The notes beneath the pieces are model-generated. The model saw only the letters and a list, made by a program, of their open reading frames with translations. It had not been told where the DNA came from and ran no database searches. A stretch of 64,000 nt of DNA from positions 737,559,980 through 737,623,979 of the forward strand of contig NC_058130.1 in NCBI RefSeq assembly GCF_016433145.1, written 5' to 3'. Source of the DNA: Gracilinanus agilis (taxonomy: Eukaryota). The position numbers were made by a program, and so were the translations under genes. Every line of letters starts with the position of its first letter. Within the stretch, counting starts at the first letter, position 1. Shown here one piece after another: positions 30,847 through 62,242 of the stretch.

Positions 30847-31358
<512 letters not shown>

Positions 31359-34085: not shown

Positions 34086-34556
<471 letters not shown>

Positions 34557-34614
34557 TCAGGATATGTACTGTTAGGTTCAGATCAGGCCAAGATGAACTT
34601 GGGTATTGGGATTA

Positions 34615-34845
<231 letters not shown>

Positions 34846-35558
34846 TCAAATTTGTGCATCAGGCAAGCCAACTTTATTAATCTCAGTTAATCTCCTTTAA
34901 AATAAACACTGGCCTAGAAGTTAAGGATACATGAAGCTCTGCTGTTGCCTCATGAATCTCATTCTCCCTACCAATAAAATGGTGTGGTTGGAATACTCAA
35001 TAGTATCTCAAGAGGTTCAGATTTGTATAATTCAAACATCTTCTCTATGCCTCTTCCTCTTCACCAAGTTTCAGCCTAGTCTATTTGCCCTTGCTTCTAG
35101 TCCAAGGTGCACTGAAGGGCACCTGACCCTTTCTCCATTTATGAAAAACACTTATCAAGTCTTAGGCTAATCTCTTTCAAAGCATCAATCCTCTTTAGAA
35201 TATTCCTAACAGGGAATGCTATGGATGCAGATCAAAACATGCTGTCTTTCACATTAGTGTATTTGCAGTTTTATTTAGCGGTTTTGGTTTTGCATGAGTG
35301 TGGTCTTACAGCAGTGATCAATATGGAACTGTGTTTTGCATAATAAAAATAAACATTTTCAACAGAAGTAGTCATCCAGCCTGCGCTTGGTCCTCAGTGA
35401 ACACATGACCAGAAACTAGAGTGCTGTGGAGTGGAATCTGGTAAAGTGGGGTTGTGATTGTGAAAAGGCAGACAGAAGGGAAAGAAGATTGAAGGAGTAA
35501 GATTAGAGCTCTTCAAAGCAGTCATGAATTCAAGCTAAATTCTTTAATCTTCCTATAC

Positions 35559-35995
35559 CAATGGTGGCAAACCTATGGCATGTGTGCCAAAGATGGCATA
35601 CAGAGTACTCTGTAGGTACGTGCACTACCTCCCCCCCCCTCCTCCCAATCACAATCCCCCCCACAGAATTCATTACTAGAAAGGCAGAGGGACTTGGGCA
35701 GAACTGCTTCCTTCCCCCTCTCCACCAGGCCTGATGACATTTTTTCACATTACCCATCCATCTGCCCAGCAGCCCAATGGGAGCACTTCCTTCTGTGTCT
35801 GGGGTAAGGTAGGCAGCTCACAGAACTGTCAGGGAGCAGAACACTCAGGTCACTCCCCTCCCCATCTCTATACTTGCTGAGGACATTCTTCACTTCACCC
35901 ACCCCAAATGGGAGCACTTTCCCCTTCCTCCATGTCGGGTAAGGGTAGGGCAGGCACACCCAGCACTGGGGGGGGAGGGGGGAGGACACAGCACA
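35559..35995 (+). mobile_element. hAT element, same OC1-like family as 5746-5971, right TIR missing
   Basis: caatggtggcaaacctatggcatgtgtgccaaagatggc left end; shares cccagcagcccaatgggagcacttcc with the 5.8 kb copy. Confidence 0.75.
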
Positions 35996-36171
35996 TGCTC
36001 TCAAAAAGTCATATGCTCTAACCATGCCCACCTCTCCCCTTGTCAAAAATCTGTGCTCACAAAAAAGTGAATGATAAACAGGTTCTTATGAGTTATAATT
36101 GTTAATAAGGCATTGTTATTGTGAAGAGATGCAAAAAACATAAATTTATAATTTTAAGGGGTATTTTTTAT

Positions 36172-36412
36172 GGGTAGCTAGGGGGCATAGTGGAAGAAGG
36201 CCCAGAAGTCAAGATTTATCTTCTGAGTTTACATCTGACTTCATATACTAGCTGTATGACCCTGGGCAAATTACTTAACCTTGTTTGCCTCAGTTCCTCA
36301 TATGCATGTAAAATGAGCTGAAGAAGGAAATGGCAAACCACTCTAGTATATTTGCCAAGAAAACCTACAAATAGAGTCACAAAGAGCCTAGACACAATTG
36401 AAACAACTGAAC
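36172..36412 (+). mobile_element. MAR1-like SINE
   Basis: gaaggaaatggcaaaccactctagtatatttgccaagaaaac tail. Confidence 0.8.
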
Positions 36413-37309
36413 GTTATGGGATTAAAGAAGCAAGCAGCTTAGGTAGCATAGTAGATGAGTCAGAAAAACCTGAATTTGAATCCTGCCTCTGACAATTATT
36501 AGCTGTGTGACTGGGCAAGTAATTTAACTTTAGCCTGTTTCATCATCAGTGAAATAGGAATAATAACAGCATCTACTTCCAGAGGACTAATAAGAGGAAC
36601 AAACGAAAGTACTTGCAAACCTTGAATTGTAAATATTAACTAATATACCTTTTGGGAAGGGTGGAAGCTGCCTAAGTCACAATGCCTAGATTTTTCTAGA
36701 CAGATAAGGGAAGGAACTTTAGATCATCTAATTCAACTCCTTCATTTTAATGACAGGGAATTGAAATTCAAAATAGTGTTAGCAAGCAAAATGGGACCAT
36801 AATGAAGAAGAATAGTATAGACAGGGTGTGAGCCTGTGCAGGTAATGACCATATTGGCTTAGAGCATATCTAAGTTTGAAGCTTCTCTCAGTGGAGACCA
36901 AGATAGTGTTACCCTCCAAAATTTGGTAATTCTGTTGATTGTTCCATCATCCTCTATTACCTAGGTTTGGTACTTACTGAGCTCAGACTCTTCCTTCCAC
37001 CCAATATTCAATCAGTTTCTAGGTACTATTGATTCTACCTTCCAGGCAGGGAAGACAGGGGAAATAAGCCATAGAGAAGGGAAGAATCTGCCCCAAGTCA
37101 CCCAACCAGTAAAATGAAGAGGTTGTACTAGATGATGACTGAGGTCATCTGAGCTGCAGAAATAGTCAAGAGCTTGATGTGACTCTAGGTTAAACTTGGT
37201 AAGCTTAAGGCAGCTGGAGACACACTGGAGACAATGTGCAGTAAATGTGGTCAGAGGAACTGGGTTTTAATCCTGGATCAGCTATTTGGGATCAGAGTTT
37301 TAGAGCTGG

Positions 37310-38160
37310 AAAGTCTAAAGACATAGATAGCATGCTTATCAAATGTGCAAATGACACAAAGCTGAGAAGCTAATTCACACAATGGATGACAGTCAGGATC
37401 CAAAAGACTTCTGAGATTCTAAAACATTGGGCTAAATCTTAATAAGATGGAATTCATTAAGGATAAATGTGAAGTCTTAACCTTCTGTACAAAAAAAAAT
37501 CAACTTCACAAGGGCAAAAGGTGAGAGGTATGGATAGAGAGTGACTGTTTTTAAAAAGATTGGCATAGAGTACTACAGATACAGTATGAATCAGTAAGTG
37601 TGAAATGACAAACTAAAGTGTAAACACAGTCTTGGCCTGCATTGAGGGACCTGACTTCTTGTAATAGGCAGGTGGTAAGTCCTATTCTCCTGATCCTATC
37701 TCAGGCCTCATGTTCAAATCTGGGCACTTCAATCTAAGAACACTGGAAAACCAGAGTCTCGTGAGGATAATCAAGATGGTGAAAGGCCTTAAGTCCACAT
37801 CATAAGAGGTTCAGCTGTCAGAAGAAAAGAAGGTTCAAGGGGCCAGGATAGCTGCCTTCAAGTATCTGAAAAGCTATTGTGTACAAAAGGGATTAGATTT
37901 GTTCTGTTTGGCCCCAAAAGTCTAAACCAGGAACAATGGGTGGAAGTTACAAAGAAACAAATTTAGGTCTGATGTCAAGAAAAACTTCCTAAGGAACAGA
38001 ATTGCACAAAGAGGGGATGAGTCGCCTTTAGAGGTCTTGGTCTTTTGACTTTCTTTGGAAGCCCTTAAAAGGAGACTAAATAACCTCTTCTATAGGTTAC
38101 AGTAGGGAATTCCTTTTGATTAAAGGTTGCATTAAATGCCTACTGAGGCCCTCTCCAACT
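37310..38160 (+). mobile_element. CR1/L3 LINE fragment
   Basis: caaatgtgcaaatgacacaaagctg, gggctaaatcttaataagatgg, gccttcaagtatctgaa motifs. Confidence 0.7.
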
Positions 38161-39029
38161 CAAATTTTTCTATTCTATCTGGCTCTGGCTCACTATACAA
38201 CATGGCCAAGTGTTTCTCCCCCTTTTTCCAGTTTTCCCATCTATAAAATATTAAATTAGGGGTTGGACCAGATGACCTCTGAGGACTCTCCTAGCTCTGA
38301 AGTTCTACAACTGTGGAAAGAACATAACATTATATAGTAGAATTAGCACTGGGAATGCATCTCACAAACCTGGTTTGTAAATCTAACTCTGACACTTAAC
38401 TCTCTGGATCTTATTTTCTTCCATCTGTGTACATTGGGGAGGTTGGGAATTGGTCTAGGCAACCTGGATGGCCCCTCCCATCTCTAGACTCTGGGGTATC
38501 CATTTCATACCTGAAATCCTCAAGGACATGAACTTTAAATGGCAAGAAGCCTCTTCCACATCATAAATGATGGGCTACTCAAAGGGGACTGACTCAGACA
38601 TTTCCTAGCTGTGTGACCCTGGGCAAGTAAGTTACTTCACCCCTATTGCCTAGTCCTTACCACTCTTCAGCCCTGGAGCCAATACCCAGTATTGATTCTA
38701 AGACAGAAGGCAAAGGTTTAAAATAAAAGTGGGAAGGGGAAGGAATGACTGGTCGATAGAATGAAGCTCCCGTAAAATGAGCTGTGACAGTTGTGGTTAA
38801 TCCCATCTCTCAGCCCCACTGACCAGATCTATCTATCTCCCACTTCTATCTCTGGCCCTCATTCTAATGTCTCTAGTCCTGAACCCTGTGCATCTTCCTC
38901 AGATCTGAATGACTCCTTTTCCCACAGGAACCAAGATGGCCAGGGTCTAAGTTCATATTCAGTGGGAATAACTTATGACTTCCAGCTAGAGCTGGACTTC
39001 CAGGGCCAATCGACCAGCTCTTTCACCTA

Positions 39030-39338
<309 letters not shown>

Positions 39339-39420
39339 CTAGAGAGCGACAGGAGATTTTTGCCCATGGCTCTGCTTATACAGCCTTGATGGTAAGTGTC
39401 CTGGGGGTCTGAGAACTTAC

Positions 39421-39508
39421 TCCCTCTCGGTCCCGGCTGCCCCTGGGCTGGCTCAGCTGCTTCTGGAGCACCAGACAAGCTTCCTTCAGGCGGGAACTCA
39501 GCTCAAAC
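39421..39508 (-). CDS. KANK3: KANK3 exon 6
   Basis: gcttcag|FELSSRLKEACLVLQKQLSQPRGSRDREG|gtaagt. Confidence 0.92.
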
Positions 39509-39647
39509 CTGAAGCAAGAAAAGGGGCCCTAAGGAACAGGGAAGACTTCTAAAGGTATAGAAAGGAAGCAGAGCAAGACTGGATAGGATGGAGACCCTCC
39601 CAGGGACAGAACAAAACTGACTTACTCTTCTCTTCAGTCCTACTCAC

Positions 39648-39845
39648 TTCTCTTGGTTGTCAGGGGCATCATGTGCAGCCTGTGACTGGTTCTGGACACC
39701 AGAAGAGCTGCTCCCTGGGGAATGAGGTGGAGAGTGGCCAGCAGAGCCAGAGCTATCATCTGAGGAGCCCTCAGGGTCCCCTGGCTCTGAGTCACTATCT
39801 CCATCACTGGCTTCTTCCTCTTCACTGGATGAAGAACTCTCATAC
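39648..39845 (-). CDS. KANK3: KANK3 exon 5 (acidic/Ser-rich)
   Basis: ccatcag|YESSSSSEEEEASDGDSDSE...DNQEK|gtgagt. Confidence 0.9.
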
Positions 39846-40392
39846 CTGATGGGAGAAGGGCTTATGGATAGAGGAAGACAAAGAGGAGCTTTTGGGACTG
39901 AAAATAACGAGGCTCCAAGTACCAAACAGGATCCTAGAATCCCAAACTCTCAAAGCTGAATATGACCTCAAGATATGTTGAACATGATGTGTTCCTGGCC
40001 TGGCTCTCCCCCTGCCCAACCTTCCTGACCAATAGTCAACTATTCTCTAGTGATGAGGAAACTATTACCATCCAAGAAAGCCACTTTTGAATCATGGAAG
40101 GAAGCTATAGCCCAGAACAAGGAAAAGAGTTGGCTAAGCTAGGGAAAATTAAACACTATCAAAGGATTTAGAGTTGAAGGGACCTTTGAGATTAGCTAGA
40201 CCAAACCCCCTTATTTTTTAGATGAGGAAGTTACTGCCAAAGACGGGAAGTGACTTTCCCAAAGTCACACAGCTAGTGAGTGGTAGAACTAGAGCTAGAA
40301 TCCAGGCATCTGACTTTAAACCCAGGGCTCTTTACTGGGGACCAGGAGAGAACCCAGAGCCTAGGAGGAGGGCATTGGGTTCTAGAGTCTCA

Positions 40393-41930
<1,538 letters not shown>

Positions 41931-55339: not shown

Positions 55340-58020
55340 TGTATGAAGATGTTGTTTGACTCCTAAGCTAAAATCTTATTCGTGAAATGGGACCCAGAAT
55401 CTAATACAATGTGTAGTGGAATAGAGAATCTGGGTATCAATTCTCTCAGTAAGATTTTCACAACAAATGCTGAGGTGTTACATTTTGCTGGAAAAGCTTC
55501 TGGCCACTTAGTTAATCTATCCACTATCACTAAAGCATATCTGTAACCTTGACTCCTTGTAATTGTGATGTAATCAATTTGTAAGCATTCGAATGGTGTA
55601 TAAGCTAATGGTTTGCCTCTCAGACTGTGGACTTTTGTAATTTTCTGGTTGAATTGCATACAAATTTCTACACCTCTGTGAAACTCTCATAGCAACTTCA
55701 TATATGCCCCTTGCATTCCAATACCTATTTATGGAATCTGGCATGCCCAGATTTCCATAATGCCCTTTCTGGTTAGTGCATTGCAAAAGGTGAAATATAG
55801 GGATTTAGGTAACATAGGTTTTTCCATTTGCCCCCAGCCAAACTCAGTTAGCCAGGTATGCACCGTGATGTTTCTTCCAATTCTTCACTTCCTTTGGGGA
55901 GTATGCGTTTTTGAGATCATCTTCCTCTACCAAAGATAAGTTCAGAATTGTAAGTGATCCATACTTTGCTGCATATTTGGCTGTGATATCTGCACGTTTG
56001 TTCCCTAATTCCATTGGCCCTTGGATTTTGGTATGAGCTTTGCAATGAATGACTGACACTTGGGCTGGTAATTGGATTGCATCCAACAACTGATTGATTA
56101 AATTCCCATATGCTATCTGTTTGCCATTGGATGTAATGAAGCCTCAATTTTTCCAGATTTCAGCAGAATGCACGACTGAGAAAGCATAATGAAAATCGAT
56201 AAAAATGTTTGCTTTGCGATTTTCAGCAAGCTTCAGAGCATGTATCAAACTGACCAATTCTGCTCCTTGAGCACTCGTGGTAGATGGTAATGATGAGTAC
56301 CAAAGGATCTTGGAGGCTGTCACTACGGCTGCTCTGTTATATCTCTGATTGTCTACTATGTATGATGATCCATCTGTGAATAAGGTCATATCGGGGTATT
56401 TCATGGGCTTATCATCTAAATCTGGCCTTGTTTTATGCACAATGTTAAGTGCATCTTCACAGATGTGTAGACTTTTTCCCTCCAGAGGTAAATCTGGGAT
56501 CAGAGTTACAGGATTTAAGTTTCTGCACCAGTGAAAAGTTATATTTTCATTAGCCAACAAGATTGCTTGGTATTGTGATAGTCTTTGGGAGGTGAACACT
56601 TGTAAGGTGGTGTTTCTTAAAGTAGATTCCACTTGGTGTGGGGAAAATACTTTCGGTTAACTCCCTAATACCAAGGATGAAGATTTTCTAATCATGATGG
56701 CTACAGCAGCTATGGCTCTTAAACAAGCCGGCATACCACAGATCACTGAATCTAATTTTGAGTTATAGTAGGCGACTGGTCTTAACCTATTCCCGAATGA
56801 TTGTGTGAGAACACTAGAGGCTATCCGTTTATCTTCATGTACATAAAGTAGGAATGGTTTGTCATGATCAGGGATACCTAGGGCTGGAGCTGATAGAGTA
56901 AGTGATTTTAATTTCTCTATTGCATGGACATGATCTTTAGTCAGCTTTAACGGTTCTGGAACTTCCTTCCTGGTTAGCTCTATCAGAGGTTTTGTGATGA
57001 GAGCATAACCTGGAATCCACTTTCTATAGAAGCTCGTTATTCCTATGATTGCCCTGAGTTACCTCTTGGTCTTAGGCAAACTCAAATTTTGTATATCTTG
57101 TGTTCTCTTTTGGGAAATTCTTCTGGAGCCTTTTTCTAGGATGAATCCTAAATAATTTACTTTCTCCATCACGAATTGAAGTTTTGACTTGGAAATTTTA
57201 TGGCCCCTTTTGCCTAGCTCTTTGATTAAGTGTACACTATCAGTGTAACAGACTTCAGCAGATGATGACATTAGCAGGATATCATCAACATAATGTACCA
57301 TTTTGCTGTTTTGGAAAGTTATTGACTCAAAGTCTCTCTGCAGGATTTGATAGAAGACCGAAGCTGAATCTGAAAAACCTTGTGGCAGATGGGTCTGTTG
57401 GATGGATTTGCCTTCCCATGAGAAAGCGAACAGCTTCTGGCTGTCTCTGTGCAGGGGAACAGAGAAGTATGCAGAGCTCAGGTCCAGAACAGTAAACCAA
57501 GCAGCTTCAGGTGGAATGGCTGCAATGATTTGTGATAGACTTGGTACCACCGCATGGGTCTTTTGCACATGATCGTTTATTGCTCTGAGATCTTGTACTA
57601 AATGCCATTGAGTCTTCCCATCTGGAGATAATTTGGCTTTCTTTACTGGCATGATTGGTGTATTATATTGTGAAAAGCCATATACCCTGCTTTAATAAAC
57701 TCTCTATGATGGGTTTCACTCCCTCTATTGCCTCTTGGCTAAGTCTGAACTGAGGAATTCTTGGAGGTAAACCTTCTTTTACCTCTATCTTTACTGGTTC
57801 CGCTGACAATATCCTGCCCACCTCATTTGAATTTTTAGCCCACACGTAATCTGGAATATCGTCTGAACCTCATAGATGTTATCAGTTGATTGGTATGATG
57901 GTTCCTCAATACATGAGTTTAAAAATAAAATGGGATGGTGTTTTAGAGATATCTTGGGTAGGTATAAATAAATTTGTCCATCCGGTTGACATTGGATGGT
58001 GGCGGCCAATTTGCATAGGA
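55340..58020 (-). pseudogene. pol: ERV pol (RT, tether, RNase H, partial IN), multiply disabled
   Basis: LVQDLRAIN, LDLSSAYFSVPL, LPQGF, YVDD (57281-57292), QIDYI..IVDRLTKWPEAFP; about 10 stops or frameshifts. Confidence 0.95.
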
Positions 58021-58024
58021 GATC

Positions 58025-59437
58025 TCATTCCATGAGGTTTGAAGGACATGATGGCATCAATAGGAAGGTGTTTTCAAGAGTTAGAGGTCCAAATTTTAGC
58101 ATTTTAACTTTTAGCTTCGGGACTTGTTGTGATACCCCAGAAGCTCCTTTTACTCTCAAACTGCCTTGATATTGGCATCCTTCAGGTACCTCGCGTAAAA
58201 CAGAACAAGTTGTACCAGTGTCCAGTAGTCCTTCATAGTGTATCCCAAAGATTTCTAGGGTAACTAATGGTTCTCCACTGTCATTGGACTTCACTGGCAC
58301 TAGGGGTAATAAAGAATCCTCAGTATTTTGTGTACACTTATCATTGATCCAGTGTTGCAAATGGTCATTTGTGTCTAAACTCAAACTTCCTATAGCACTA
58401 TTCGGCAAGTTCAGTTTAGAATCAGAAATACAGAAAACAGGCTTAAAGAGCATTCTCTCATTGAGAGCTGGTAAGTCATTGTCATTTGTGCAAATTTCAT
58501 GTTGGCTTTCGCTAAGGGCTGAAGAAATGGAGGTTTGATTTGATTTACCGTCCACTCTGATATTTAAAGAACTGTCATGCTCCAAATCAGTTTTCCCCTC
58601 AGTAGTATCCGGGAATATATGGTAGTTAGATTGTGTTCCCTTCAACACTTCAGGTAGAACTATTGATTCAAAAGCTGACTGATGTTCCCTATTTTGCCCT
58701 GCTGTTTTTGTGACTGAAGTCAGATGATTTTTGTTATCAATCATAGCAACAGTTTCATTGATGTTATGTTTAGCCACACTGGTTACTGGAGAAAACAACT
58801 GCTCCCTTTCCCTTCCCCAAAGTTTTGGTTGAAATTCTGTAGCTAAGAGGTTGAGAAAGGTGGATGTGGAATTTCCTAAACAGCTGCTATCATCCTGCAA
58901 TTCAGTGGGTTGCATCTTTAAAATCAAATCTTTGCCAATGTACTGACTGTTTTGCTCTTTAACCTCAATCTGTGACACTATATCTAAAGTACATGAATGG
59001 GATAGAATTTTGGCATCTAATTCCCTGGAGGTTACTGAAAGTGTTCCTTTCTGGAAACTTTGTAAATCCTTGCCATAATGTTCTTTATCCAAGTTGCCCC
59101 TTTGTTTTATACTTGGAATAAAGAGAGGAATTTGAATTTTTGATGATTCTGAACAAGATCGCAAAATGTCTTGATGTGAGCTTTTGTGATGGCTTGATTG
59201 ATCCTTATGCTTCTCACCCAATGTGTCTGTTATGGAATGGGAAAGCTGATCCCTTATATAATCATCCTCATTATTGCCATAGATTTCTCTGCGCATTTGC
59301 ATCATTTCTTCCCATTGCTGATTATCTACCACAGATCTATGTGTATCTTCTGTGTAGCTTGCTTTAGACACTTGCTCTATTTTGCCCAGATTTCCCATTT
59401 TGCTTTCCTCACTTAGACTACACACTGTTGCGCCCAA
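58025..59437 (-). CDS. ERV ORF: about 380-aa unknown domain plus aspartic protease (ATG at 59398 gives 457 aa)
   Basis: 470 open codons. LLDTGTTCSVL (DTG 58214-58222), flap VKGASG, and CPSNLM then a frameshift before the expected GRD motif. Confidence 0.7.
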   Translation of the reverse strand: MGATVCSLSEESKMGNLGKIEQVSKASYTEDTHRSVVDNQQWEEMMQMRREIYGNNEDDYIRDQLSHSITDTLGEKHKDQSSHHKSSHQDILRSCSESSKIQIPLFIPSIKQRGNLDKEHYGKDLQSFQKGTLSVTSRELDAKILSHSCTLDIVSQIEVKEQNSQYIGKDLILKMQPTELQDDSSCLGNSTSTFLNLLATEFQPKLWGREREQLFSPVTSVAKHNINETVAMIDNKNHLTSVTKTAGQNREHQSAFESIVLPEVLKGTQSNYHIFPDTTEGKTDLEHDSSLNIRVDGKSNQTSISSALSESQHEICTNDNDLPALNERMLFKPVFCISDSKLNLPNSAIGSLSLDTNDHLQHWINDKCTQNTEDSLLPLVPVKSNDSGEPLVTLEIFGIHYEGLLDTGTTCSVLREVPEGCQYQGSLRVKGASGVSQQVPKLKVKMLKFGPLTLENTFLLMPSCPSNLME

Positions 59438-59443
59438 ATTACA

Positions 59444-60856
59444 CTAATTAGAAGTTTTTAAATTAGGAATTTCGATTCATAATGATTTAGGCTTTGTTCC
59501 CATCTGAATATATCTTTCCATATCATCTAATGAAGGGGATTGGCTATATTTTTTACATGCATGGTTACAGCACACACCATCATGTTTGTTATCATAATTT
59601 CTTTTTGTGTCATTATTATTCTTGGACCATTTAGAATTATAGTAGGTCTTTCTATTGCCTCTGTCTCTTTGATTTTGGGTATCATTTTTGGAAAAATCTA
59701 TTTGTTGTTTAAATCTACAAAATTGAATAATGTGACCATAAGGTCCACATAGGTAACAACAAGGGGACGATTATTTTGTTTTTTGGGTGTTGCTTGTAGG
59801 TTGCCTATATTGATTTTGGCTCCTACTGGTTTGGAGGGCAAAAATTTTCACCTCCTCGATTTCTTTCTCATGCTTTGCCTGTTTTAATTGATCATTTTAG
59901 ATCAGCTATCACTTCATCCTTATCAGATTCAGTTTGTCTAGCTAATCTTGCCTCTTTTTGTTTCGAGTCATGAATGTAAGCTGCATGTTGCCTTACATCC
60001 TCCAGGGGCAATGATTCCCACTGTGGACAACTCTGCCTAAAGTAATTTTGTATTGGGATCAAGGTTCCCTTCACAAACTGTCTACGTATGTGTTCAATGG
60101 TATCCTGGACATGTGTATCTCTCAGACCAAGAATTGTCTCTGCTGCTTTGATTACCCTATCAAGAAAGCTACTTGGGTGTTCTTCCTCCCCTTGTTTTAG
60201 CTTTTCAAATTTCTGCCACGAGTTTGGTCTTTTAGCATGAATCCTCATTGCCTCAATCAAGTCTGTCCTGCACGTCATTAGGTATCTCATGTTGGCATGC
60301 TGGGTGAAATCTAAGTCTTGATGAACCAGTGGCCATGATTTCAAATTTGGATTCTTCCTTGTTTCGTTGAGGAATTTTTCCTTTTCTGAGGAAGAGTAAA
60401 ATTCCCCTAAAAAAAATTCAACATCAGCAAAATTAGGATTGAACAATATGAACACCCTTTTGAGTTCCTTGATGCTTTTGAAAGGTTTCTCGAAGAACTT
60501 GGGAAAGCATTTTTTTAAGACCTCCATATCACTTGGGGTGAATGCCTTGTATGTCTTTACATGCACCACCCCCTCCCCAGTTGTACAATGGTCCTGTCCA
60601 CAATTGGTAACACAGAGTCTACAGCATTTGTGATTGGTTGTTCTTCAGTGGTGTTATTACTTCCTAAATACTTTGATTCCACAATCTCCAGTTGGAGGAT
60701 TGTGTGCTTATCTAATTCCTTTCCCTCTCTTATTTGCTTTAATACTTGGAACAGTAGCTTGATGTTCTTTACTAGACACCCAGAGTCAGCATCATTTTTA
60801 GTAGGAGTTGTCTTAAAGTATTGCCACAGATGAGTCAAAACTATCTTAGAAATCAC
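59444..60856 (-). pseudogene. gag: ERV gag (CA with MHR, NC zinc knuckle), disabled
   Basis: CA ORF 59892-60569; CYLCGPYGHIIQFC at 59717-59758; frameshifts near 60570 and 59890; in-frame TAG at 59444-59446. Confidence 0.9.
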
Positions 60857-61076
60857 TAGGAATTGCCAGAGATAGGATTATGGCAATAGCAGTAGGGATG
60901 AAACATATGCATTCAGCAAGGGTTAGGGCACACCATTTGTAGTAGTCATATATTTCAAGAATTTGCTGCACTAAACTAGGGACTTTCACGAACCAGAAGT
61001 TGATAAGACCTTGCATGAAAGACCAAGCTATTATAGAGACACTGGATAGAATGAATGTAATCCTAGCCAGATTCAT
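60846..61076 (-). CDS. Hydrophobic 76-aa pre-gag ORF (or frameshifted Gag N-terminus)
   Basis: First ATG after the PBS; two hydrophobic segments (ITFILSSVSIIAWSFM.. and ICFIPTAIAIILSLAIP). Confidence 0.4.
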   Translation of the reverse strand: MNLARITFILSSVSIIAWSFMQGLINFWFVKVPSLVQQILEIYDYYKWCALTLAECICFIPTAIAIILSLAIPSDF

Positions 61077-61106: not shown

Positions 61107-61124
61107 CACTAACTTTGCTCACCA
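61107..61124 (-). other. Putative primer binding site
   Basis: TGGTGAGCAAAGTTAGTG, 3 nt after the LTR-terminal CA; tRNA not identified. Confidence 0.5.
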
Positions 61125-61127
61125 AGT

Positions 61128-62242
61128 TGTAATAAGGGAATAAAGCAAGTGGATGGGGTTTGTGGGTCCCTAGGTCAGTAGGTGGGAAAGGAGGGTGCAA
61201 TAGTGGAGGTAGTAGATTGAGGTGGTAGGAGAGATGTAAGGGAATGGCTGTGTTTAGGGAAATATAGAACAATGAAGTATAATGAGCGACAAGGGGAGAT
61301 GATGAGGTAATTGGGCAGGCAGCTGCAACAGGGAGACATAGACTGGGTACACAGGCTTGAGATAGAGGACACTGAAGGGAAACAGGCTGAACCTTTCCAG
61401 GTAGGAAGGGCACTTCTACAGACAAAAGGTTAGGTCCAGCCAGAAATGGTTTGAAACTAACTAGAGGGCTGTCTAGTCAGTTTCTCAAGTTCTCAAAGAA
61501 AGAGTCCTAAGGCTCTTCCCTGTCTGTGAAATAGAAGAGCTTCTCAGAGGAAGTATAGAGATCACCACTTCCTCCAAGATAGATGCCTCCATATCCCCTC
61601 AGGAACCAAAGAGAAACAATTCCTTTCTCTCCTTAACACTCTTTTATTGTTCAACCAATGATTTAGCAAAAAGTTTGATTAAATAACAACAGGGTTTATT
61701 AAGTTTCAGGGTTGATTATAAAGGACAGAGGGATACAAGATTTCTCTAACAACCGCCTAGGGAGAAGCTCCAGGTGGGGGAGGGACACAGAAATGGCATG
61801 GACTGAGAAAGAGCTTGCTCTCACTCAGCACCCAGAGGCTTTGTTGCCTTTAAGGTTAGGGAAGTAATAAACAATGAATCAGGAGATAGTTTGTATCAAG
61901 GGTAAGCCCTACTTGTCTATGGGGAAAACTAAGTCTTCCAAGTTTGATTGCTACCACCCAAAATACACCCTTCTCCCAAAACCCACAGGAAATCAGGAAA
62001 GGAAATGGGGAATGAAATAGGGAAGGTCAGGGAGATCCAGAGGAATTAGCTAAGCTACAAAATCTCAAGAGAAAAGCACAGATTCAAGGCCAGGTTTAAA
62101 CCCGAAGGCCGAGCTCAGTTGCCCCCTCCACTCTGTCCAAGCCTCAAGGATCAACTCCCCTTAGTCAGGGTTCTAAGCCCTCTTAACTTCCAGAAATTCT
62201 GCAGTTAGCATTTTGCAGGGTTGATTGCACCTCTGCACTACA
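61128..62242 (-). mobile_element. ERV 5' LTR (about 1115 bp)
   Basis: TGTA...TACA termini; AATAAA at about 61643 and about 61695; followed by a PBS-like TGG. Confidence 0.8.

What the first reader, a model, noticed from the sequence alone, without database searches (positions are those of the whole stretch)
58025..59437. ERV encodes an unexplained 380-aa domain fused to protease, in the only intact long ORF of a decayed provirus
In class I retroviruses the protease begins within a few dozen codons of the gag stop. Here about 380 codons of S/T/N/D/Q/H-rich sequence with no motif I recognise (weak internal repeat HYGKDLQ/YIGKDLI) lie between the gag TAG (59444) and the protease, in frame with both the NC knuckle and DTG. 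The ORF is open for 470 codons, while pol has about 10 disablements in 2.7 kb and gag about 5 in 1.6 kb. At that rate an unbroken 1.4 kb is unlikely. Options are a novel accessory domain of an undescribed marsupial ERV lineage, a captured host sequence, or a locus-specific exapted ORF.
Basis: partly seen in the sequence, partly recalled or inferred. Interest (0 to 1): 0.8.

Follow-up and report, generated by a model that had tools for sequence, protein, structure and literature searches.

The report
Retroviral spacer with poly(A)-protein docking motif
A high-copy endogenous retrovirus family, likely from an opossum, carries a 390-residue fast-changing insert between its gag stop and its protease; the insert's best-conserved part is a PAM2 motif that likely docks on the host's poly(A)-binding protein, while the long open frame in this particular broken copy is within chance.

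Summary
The 472-codon open frame is real, but it is not an intact gene. Both bounding stops are nonsense mutations, and the family gag stop is the TGA at 59477-59479. An open stretch this long in this copy is within chance (P 0.22). The insert (X, 59476-58304) is standard in a high-copy, env-less class I ERV family: 27 of 27 RT- or capsid-selected copies spanning the junction carry it, and it decays after insertion as fast as RT. During replication it stayed in frame (0 clade-shared stops or frameshifts, about 38 expected) but with dN/dS about 1, against 0.07-0.17 for gag and pol. It is acidic and predicted unfolded. The exception is a canonical PAM2 motif (LNxxAxEFxP, 58826-58855). Its six defining sites have dN/dS about 0.01, rank 1 of 383 placements. 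A complex model with a host MLLE domain gives weak support. A sister family in the same genome lacks X. Best reading: a lineage-specific disordered spacer of the read-through Gag-Pol that likely docks on PABP. It is not a host-exapted ORF. No retroviral PAM2 turned up in the papers searched.

The parts
61128..62242 (-). 5' LTR (about 1.1 kb, TG...CA)
   Evidence: Aligns with the 3' LTR of other copies; edges read from the sequence
61107..61124 (-). Primer-binding-site-like stretch beginning TGG just after the LTR; tRNA not assigned
59477..61076 (-). gag, broken: frameshifts near 60869, 60579 and 59892, stop at 59773. Begins with a hydrophobic N-terminal region and no Met-Gly start
   Evidence: Pfam Gag_p30 E 9.9e-11; breaks; hydropathy maximum 2.1-2.4 in 4 of 4 copies examined
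59717..59758 (-). Single CCHC nucleocapsid knuckle
   Evidence: Read from the translation
59477..59479 (-). Family gag stop, TGA, in frame with X and pro-pol; likely read-through site
   Evidence: TGA in 73 of 81 rows; context UGAAUC in 46 of 74 rows
58304..59476 (-). X: about 390-codon acidic, Ser-rich, predicted disordered insert between gag stop and protease
   Evidence: AlphaFold2 pLDDT 33
59444..59446 (-).
   Evidence: 0 of 83 other rows have a stop here
58826..58855 (-). PAM2 motif, LNxxAxEFxP
   Evidence: 63 of 85 rows match, the window included; six defining sites dN/dS about 0.01; consensus from PMC7356810; complex score 0.47 against best control 0.02
57990..58303 (-). Aspartic protease, DTG at 58214-58222, broken by a stop at 58025-58027
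55366..57979 (-). RT, RNase H and part of integrase, with nine further breaks. The copy is cut off near 55366: no integrase C-terminus or 3' LTR in the window

Best explanation
X is a family-wide, in-frame, fast-changing acidic insert between the TGA gag stop and the protease of an env-less class I ERV; it was likely made as a disordered part of the read-through Gag-X-Pro-Pol polyprotein, and its conserved PAM2 motif likely binds the MLLE domain of cytoplasmic poly(A)-binding protein. Shown: family-wide presence, frame kept during replication, dN/dS about 1 overall, strong constraint on the six PAM2 sites, absence from the sister family, neutral decay in this copy. Inferred: as the chain emerges after read-through, the PAM2 would dock on PABP bound to the element's own poly(A) tail and displace eRF3 and other PAM2 factors. 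That would favour further read-through of the leaky TGA and keep Pol with its own RNA. The rest of X would be a flexible tether needing only an open frame and a polar, acidic make-up. The window copy is a dead insertion.
For: 27 of 27 junction-spanning copies, out of 67 RT- or capsid-selected loci, carry X. Mean stops per row are 1.4 in the gag-pol frame against 25 and 46 in the other frames. No clade-shared stop or frameshift against about 38 stops expected on supported internal branches, but 9 clade-shared in-frame indels. Internal-branch dN/dS: X 0.965; CA 0.069; RT 0.153; PR 0.171. Net charge -4.7 per 100 residues against +8.0 +/- 2.4 for nucleotide shuffles. PAM2: expected chance matches 4e-6 per protein; six defining sites dN/dS about 0.01 (2dL 23.6) while the four x sites are neutral; rank 1 of 383 slid placements; P 6e-4 against random six-site sets with rate variation; synonymous variants at the Phe and final Pro. 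Pfam PAM2 is the only family hit by more than one member, 2 of 11, best E 0.3. Complex with a host MLLE domain: weak support, score 0.47 against best control 0.02, contacts agreeing at least 87%, partner pLDDT at least 57. That mark was reached by 51 of 78 solved and 2 of 108 mismatched pairs, but at 0.60 or under by only 5 solved complexes and all 4 passing mismatches. The sister family has DTG 54 residues after its stop and no X match. eRF3 binds PABP through PAM2 and this aids termination (PMC13517186, passages).
Against: Binding and any effect on read-through are untested. The complex score is weak, peptides are outside the tool's calibration, and solved PAM2-MLLE structures could produce the pass from memory. 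The Pfam hit is not significant alone, and a PDB sequence search with the 32-residue stretch found nothing. I noticed the motif by eye among conserved residues, so the conservation test is partly post hoc, though its spacing comes from the published consensus. The same review says PABP's effect on termination should be minimal when the stop is followed by over 1000 nt of coding sequence, which weakens the read-through step. Read-through itself is not shown: no stable structure follows the TGA (z from -1.3 to +1.7 in 9 of 9 copies). Weaker conserved islands in X are unexplained.
Confidence: 0.58

Rival explanations
1. X is an inert tolerated linker. It stays open only because pro-pol lies downstream in the same frame, and the PAM2 match has no function.
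For: dN/dS 0.965 with or without the motif; codon positions 1, 2 and 3 change at similar rates; no fold predicted.
Against: Six PAM2 sites are near-invariant while the x sites drift; no copy of 27 has lost X; acidic make-up is kept in all 8 copies listed across subfamilies.
Confidence: 0.14
2. X is chiefly a protease-controlling leader, like a transframe peptide: an acidic disordered region that delays protease activation until particles form on internal membranes, and is then cut off. The PAM2 is secondary.
For: X sits directly ahead of the protease. The family has no env and a hydrophobic Gag N-terminus. Aromatic-Pro and Leu-Pro stretches that resemble protease sites (recalled pattern) are among the weaker conserved islands.
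Against: The sister family also has a hydrophobic Gag N-terminus and manages with a short leader. A pro-pol-deleted subfamily keeps X. No test was run.
Confidence: 0.13
3. X is a host-facing surface under diversifying selection, for example a decoy or antagonist of restriction factors.
For: A site mixture gave 18% of sites at dN/dS about 3, 2dL 40.8; 2dL 7.5-9.7 in each third on its own tree.
Against: Four-fold synonymous sites in X are at least as rate-heterogeneous (alpha 0.12) as second positions (0.37), which mimics this signal. The capsid control also gave 2dL 16.4. The fits were short and stayed near their starting values.
Confidence: 0.1
4. This locus's open frame was exapted by the host.
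For: It is the longest open stretch of the copy. The insertion lies about 13 kb upstream of the KN-motif exon of a KANK-type gene, on the same strand.
Against: X is broken 11 codons in and the protease is broken. P = 0.22 for the open length. 9 of 33 unbiased full-length copies have at most one break in X and 3 of 33 have none. Terminal-branch dN/dS is 0.93.
Confidence: 0.03

Closest known systems
Epsilon-related class I retroviruses with a UGA gag stop (SSSV, ZFERV, Rhinella marina ERV; PMC13517186 section 4.1.2, read)
   Same: In-frame gag and pro-pol separated by UGA; SSSV and the frog ERV also have A at +4
   Different: The review describes no long insert after the stop; here about 390 extra codons precede the protease, and there is no env
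Opossum class I ERVs: Monodelphis domestica Gag-Pol K7E2C3 and A0A5F8GG34, and their relatives in this genome (L142-L145)
   Same: Nearest named Pol (53% identity), same clade (support 1.0); TGA-A stop, long post-knuckle Gag tail and hydrophobic Gag N-terminus
   Different: DTG lies 54 residues after the stop; no X and no PAM2-like match in the unmasked parts or in their Pol
Cellular PAM2 proteins (eRF3, Paip1/2, Ataxin-2, LARP4B; PMC7356810 and PMC12898128, passages)
   Same: LNxxAxEFxP motif in a disordered region, all six consensus positions present
   Different: Here it is inside a retroviral read-through polyprotein; no homology outside the motif was detected
Moloney MLV reverse transcriptase binding eRF1 (titles of Orlova 2003 and Tang 2016 seen in a reference list; content recalled)
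   Same: A read-through product that acts on the termination machinery
   Different: Different protein, different target, and MLV uses UAG with a pseudoknot
Mouse IAP retrotransposons (recalled; paper not held)
   Same: Env loss, high copy number, hydrophobic Gag N-terminus in place of a myristoylation start
   Different: IAPs are class II and use frameshifting; they have no such insert (recalled)
ERVs with captured host ORFs (CrocERV29 KIT-ligand, CrocERV31 nectin3, RSV src; PMC4299795, passages)
   Same: An extra coding region kept by a retroviral lineage
   Different: Those are separate, recognisable ORFs (the nectin3 copies are reported under purifying selection); X is fused in frame, unrecognisable and nearly unconstrained

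Membership tests
Class I ERV | RT closer to gamma/epsilon retroviruses than to spuma or class II | tested here: met
   MLV RT 455 bits, foamy 149, HERV-K/HIV about 60; tree
Class I ERV | Gammaretroviral-type capsid and one CCHC knuckle | tested here: met
   Pfam Gag_p30 E 9.9e-11; knuckle in the translation
Class I ERV | gag and pro-pol in one frame, separated by a stop | tested here: met
Class I ERV | Pol made by stop-codon read-through | not testable with these tools
   Inferred from the layout; no stimulatory structure found
Gammaretrovirus | UAG stop, downstream pseudoknot, Pol inside the gammaretroviral clade | tested here: not met
   UGA stop, no stable structure, Pol groups with opossum and reptile ERVs apart from PERV
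Env-less intracellular ERV (IAP-like) | No env between integrase and 3' LTR | tested here: met
   1.3-1.5 kb with longest open stretch 61-118 codons in 7 of 7 copies; no Pfam hit in three frames of two copies
Env-less intracellular ERV (IAP-like) | Gag targeted to internal membranes | tested here: inconclusive
   Hydrophobic N-terminal region and no Met-Gly in 4 of 4 copies; localisation untested
PAM2 motif | Consensus LNxxAxEFxP | tested here: met
   63 of 85 rows; consensus in PMC7356810
PAM2 motif | Lies outside globular domains | tested here: inconclusive
   pLDDT under 50 over residues 58-380, but from a shallow 11-row alignment; composition fits disorder
PAM2 motif | Passes Pfam PF07145 | tested here: inconclusive
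   Best E 0.3 in 2 of 11 members, none for the window copy
PAM2 motif | Binds an MLLE domain | tested here: inconclusive
   Model score 0.47 against 0.02, weak support; no experiment
Domesticated (exapted) retroviral gene | Intact frame, purifying selection after insertion, low copy number | tested here: not met
Domesticated (exapted) retroviral gene | Open orthologue and expression | not testable with these tools
   No relative genomes held; no RNA holder listed

The most novel reading that the evidence does not exclude
An opossum ERV lineage acquired a 390-residue disordered insert carrying a PAM2 mimic. The read-through polyprotein captures PABP on its own RNA and shuts out eRF3, a self-reinforcing, structure-free way to read through a UGA gag stop and a first retroviral case of PAM2 mimicry.
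Probability: 0.3. Interest if true: 0.8.

Novelty: new variant of a known kind. Interest (0 to 1): 0.55.

Why it matters
How epsilon-related retroviruses read through UGA is unverified and their cis-elements are unclear (PMC13517186, section 4.1.2). A selected PAM2 motif right behind such a stop gives a concrete, cheap hypothesis: a protein-level link to PABP and eRF3. It is also a clean natural example of a retroviral polyprotein gaining 390 residues where only the frame, the composition and a ten-residue motif are detectably selected. And it warns that the longest open frame in a decayed provirus is often chance.

Tried and rejected
Homologue searches for X: none at E <= 0.001 by word search among near-length proteins or by an 11-row profile over 1.84 billion representatives. 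This is weak evidence, because the family's own Gag also found nothing. The ESM Atlas could not take the sequence, so that look-up is open. PDB by sequence: only the protease part matched, and nothing matched the PAM2 stretch. The AlphaFold2 model was too poor for a fold search, so none was run. Internal repeats and descent from the Gag tail: not above shuffled controls. Positive selection: signal present but not trusted. RNA structure 3' of the TGA: none. Sequencing runs: no RNA holder listed; contigs of run X1 show only deep multi-copy cover. Earlier findings of this scan: none. Literature: no description of this insert in listings, and no retroviral or retrotransposon PAM2 in listings; two searches returned no papers. 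Three papers were not held. Repbase and Dfam could not be searched, so the family itself may be catalogued. No supplements were read; those of PMC11334065 cover American opossum ERVs and may bear on this.

Full report
Observation. The minus-strand frame 58025-59443 is open for 472 codons. Its last 80 residues are a retroviral protease and the first 380 match no Pfam family. It lies in a provirus with a 5' LTR at 62242-61128, gag, pro-pol and a cut near 55366. RT is closest to MLV among solved structures. The nearest named Pol proteins are from Monodelphis domestica at 53%. A Pol tree places the family with those, next to reptile ERVs and outside gammaretroviruses. The host is therefore likely an opossum; that is an inference.

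The ends of the frame are accidents. In other copies the gag stop is the TGA at 59477-59479 (73 of 81 rows). The TAG at 59444-59446 is a stop in 0 of 83 other rows. The stop at 58025-58027 is inside the protease and recurs in 24 of 69 rows (10 of the 108 loci were fetched twice, and duplicates were dropped from later counts). The insert, X, runs from 59476 to 58304 and is already broken in this copy.

X belongs to the family. A protein search of the genome gave 109 matches from 108 scored of 1663 candidates. RT and capsid DNA searches gave 1710 and 1466 candidates, 40 scored each. To avoid selecting for open X, I fetched copies by RT (39) and by capsid (28 more). All 27 of these 67 that reach both sides of the junction carry X. 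Breaks per 100 codons in RT-selected copies were 0.68 in X (71 in 10,476) and 0.70 in RT (132 in 18,795); in capsid-selected copies X had 0.77. Of 33 such full-length X rows, 3 have no break and 9 have at most one. With the window's 15 breaks in 1903 codons, a gap of 472 or more has P = 0.22. So there is no sign of preservation at this locus.

X was translated while the element replicated. Across 85 rows, stops average 1.4 per row in the gag-pol frame and 25 and 46 in the others. No stop or frameshift is shared by a clade, although about 38 stops are expected on well-supported internal branches; 9 in-frame indels are clade-shared. The oldest subfamilies sampled also have TGA, then X in frame, then protease. 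Yet a two-ratio codon model gives internal-branch dN/dS of 0.965 for X, against 0.069 for capsid, 0.153 for RT, 0.164 for the Gag N-terminus, 0.171 for protease and 0.173 for NC (1.05 with 66 rows). X is acidic and poor in hydrophobic residues relative to shuffles of its own bases: net charge -4.7 against +8.0 per 100 residues, hydrophobic 28% against 37%. AlphaFold2 gives mean pLDDT 33 from a shallow alignment. A site mixture suggested positive selection, but synonymous sites in X are just as uneven in rate, so I do not claim it.

One motif is conserved. At 58855-58826, X reads LNxxAxEFxP, the canonical PAM2 consensus as stated in PMC7356810 (passages). It is present in 63 of 85 rows, including the window; chance expectation is 4e-6 per protein. 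The six defining sites have internal dN/dS about 0.01 (0.01-0.1 within 1.92 log units; 2dL 23.6) and the four x sites about 0.7. The pattern ranks 1 of 383 when slid along X, with P 6e-4 against random site sets. A seven-site version had P 8e-4 against residue-matched sets. Synonymous variants at the Phe and final Pro codons point to protein-level constraint. No similar pattern occurs in the gag, protease or RT rows. Pfam PAM2 hits 2 of 11 members weakly, best E 0.3. A model of a natural 32-residue stretch with an MLLE domain from this genome scored 0.47 against a best control of 0.02, with contacts agreeing at least 87% and partner pLDDT at least 57. The tool calls this weak support: 51 of 78 solved and 2 of 108 mismatched pairs reach the mark, but at 0.60 or under only 5 solved pairs and all 4 passing mismatches did. 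Known PAM2-MLLE structures may drive it. I spotted the motif by eye, so part of the test is post hoc.

Context. Seven of 7 copies examined have only 1.3-1.5 kb without a long frame between integrase and the 3' LTR, and two showed no Pfam match there: the family has no env. Gag starts with a hydrophobic region and no Met-Gly, which recalls IAP elements (recalled). A sister family in the same genome has the same TGA-A stop and a hydrophobic Gag start, but DTG 54 residues after the stop and no X match (those loci are partly masked). With canonical class I retroviruses also lacking it (general knowledge), X was gained in this lineage. Seven of the 12 more distant X-selected loci fetched form a subfamily that lost pro-pol but kept gag and nearly all of X, ending in its own stop. 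The origin of X is unknown: homologue searches were blank, but so was one with the family's Gag, and internal duplication was not supported.

Mechanism. Shown: layout, frame selection, relaxed sequence, motif constraint. Inferred: X is made by read-through of the UGA, as proposed for epsilon-related retroviruses with UGA stops, where it is unverified (PMC13517186, section 4.1.2; PMC8278194, passages). The emerging PAM2 would dock on PABP on the element's own poly(A) tail. eRF3 uses a PAM2 for the same site and that contact aids termination, so occupancy would favour read-through and hold Pol with its RNA. No stable RNA structure follows the stop, which leaves room for a protein helper. Against this, the same review expects little PABP effect when a long coding region follows the stop. 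My odds: family-wide translated spacer 0.9; PAM2 binds PABP 0.7; the whole reading 0.58; a real effect on read-through 0.3.

Novelty. The provirus is an ordinary decayed class I ERV. A 390-residue insert at the gag-pro junction and a retroviral PAM2 did not appear in the listings. I also read passages of PMC11334065 (plus its section 7), PMC4299795, PMC12846552, PMC12898128, PMC12645190 and bioRxiv 10.1101/2025.10.09.680815. Repbase, Dfam and most subscription journals were out of reach, so the family may be catalogued without this feature being noted. Verdict: new variant of a known kind, interest 0.55.

Noticed in passing
L098-L103, L106: Non-autonomous subfamily: LTR, gag, TGA, about 378 codons of X with its own stop, an A-run, integrase tail, LTR. 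Pro-pol is deleted; LTR pairs are 93-97% identical in two copies.
   Followed up: partly
window 59950-60659 against 58304-59476 and 56420-57979: In the same 120 copy pairs, capsid dS is 0.54 but X and RT dS are 0.12. Gag has diverged far more at silent sites than X-pol, which suggests gag exchange or a sweep of X-pol. Unexplained.
   Followed up: no
window 60830-61076: Hydrophobic Gag N-terminal region under purifying selection (dN/dS 0.16), also seen in the sister family; possible internal-membrane targeting in a class I ERV.
   Followed up: partly
L142-L145: Sister class I family in this genome, related to Monodelphis K7E2C3, with many young copies whose pro-pol frames are long and open; described only at the gag-pro junction.
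   Followed up: partly
window 58239-58250: A G-run just before the protease active site is an indel hotspot in most copies; it is interrupted in the window copy, which helps explain why its frame runs into the protease.
   Followed up: yes
L060:7208-8134 in oriented coordinates; L070:7133-7894: Integrase ends in a long acidic Q/E/D/N-rich tail of similar character to X.
   Followed up: no
window 34086-41930 (minus) and 30885-31355 (plus): Exons of a KANK-type gene (Pfam KN_motif, ankyrin repeats) and an RPS28 exon (Pfam Ribosomal_S28e) lie 13-25 kb from the provirus.
   Followed up: partly
L132: Intronless PABP-like gene with an open frame of at least 588 codons on contig C7, among 22 MLLE matches in the genome.
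   Followed up: no
L039: A close copy about 216 kb away on the same contig, in opposite orientation, is the window's nearest neighbour in the X tree and shares the interrupted G-run; its flanks differ.
   Followed up: partly
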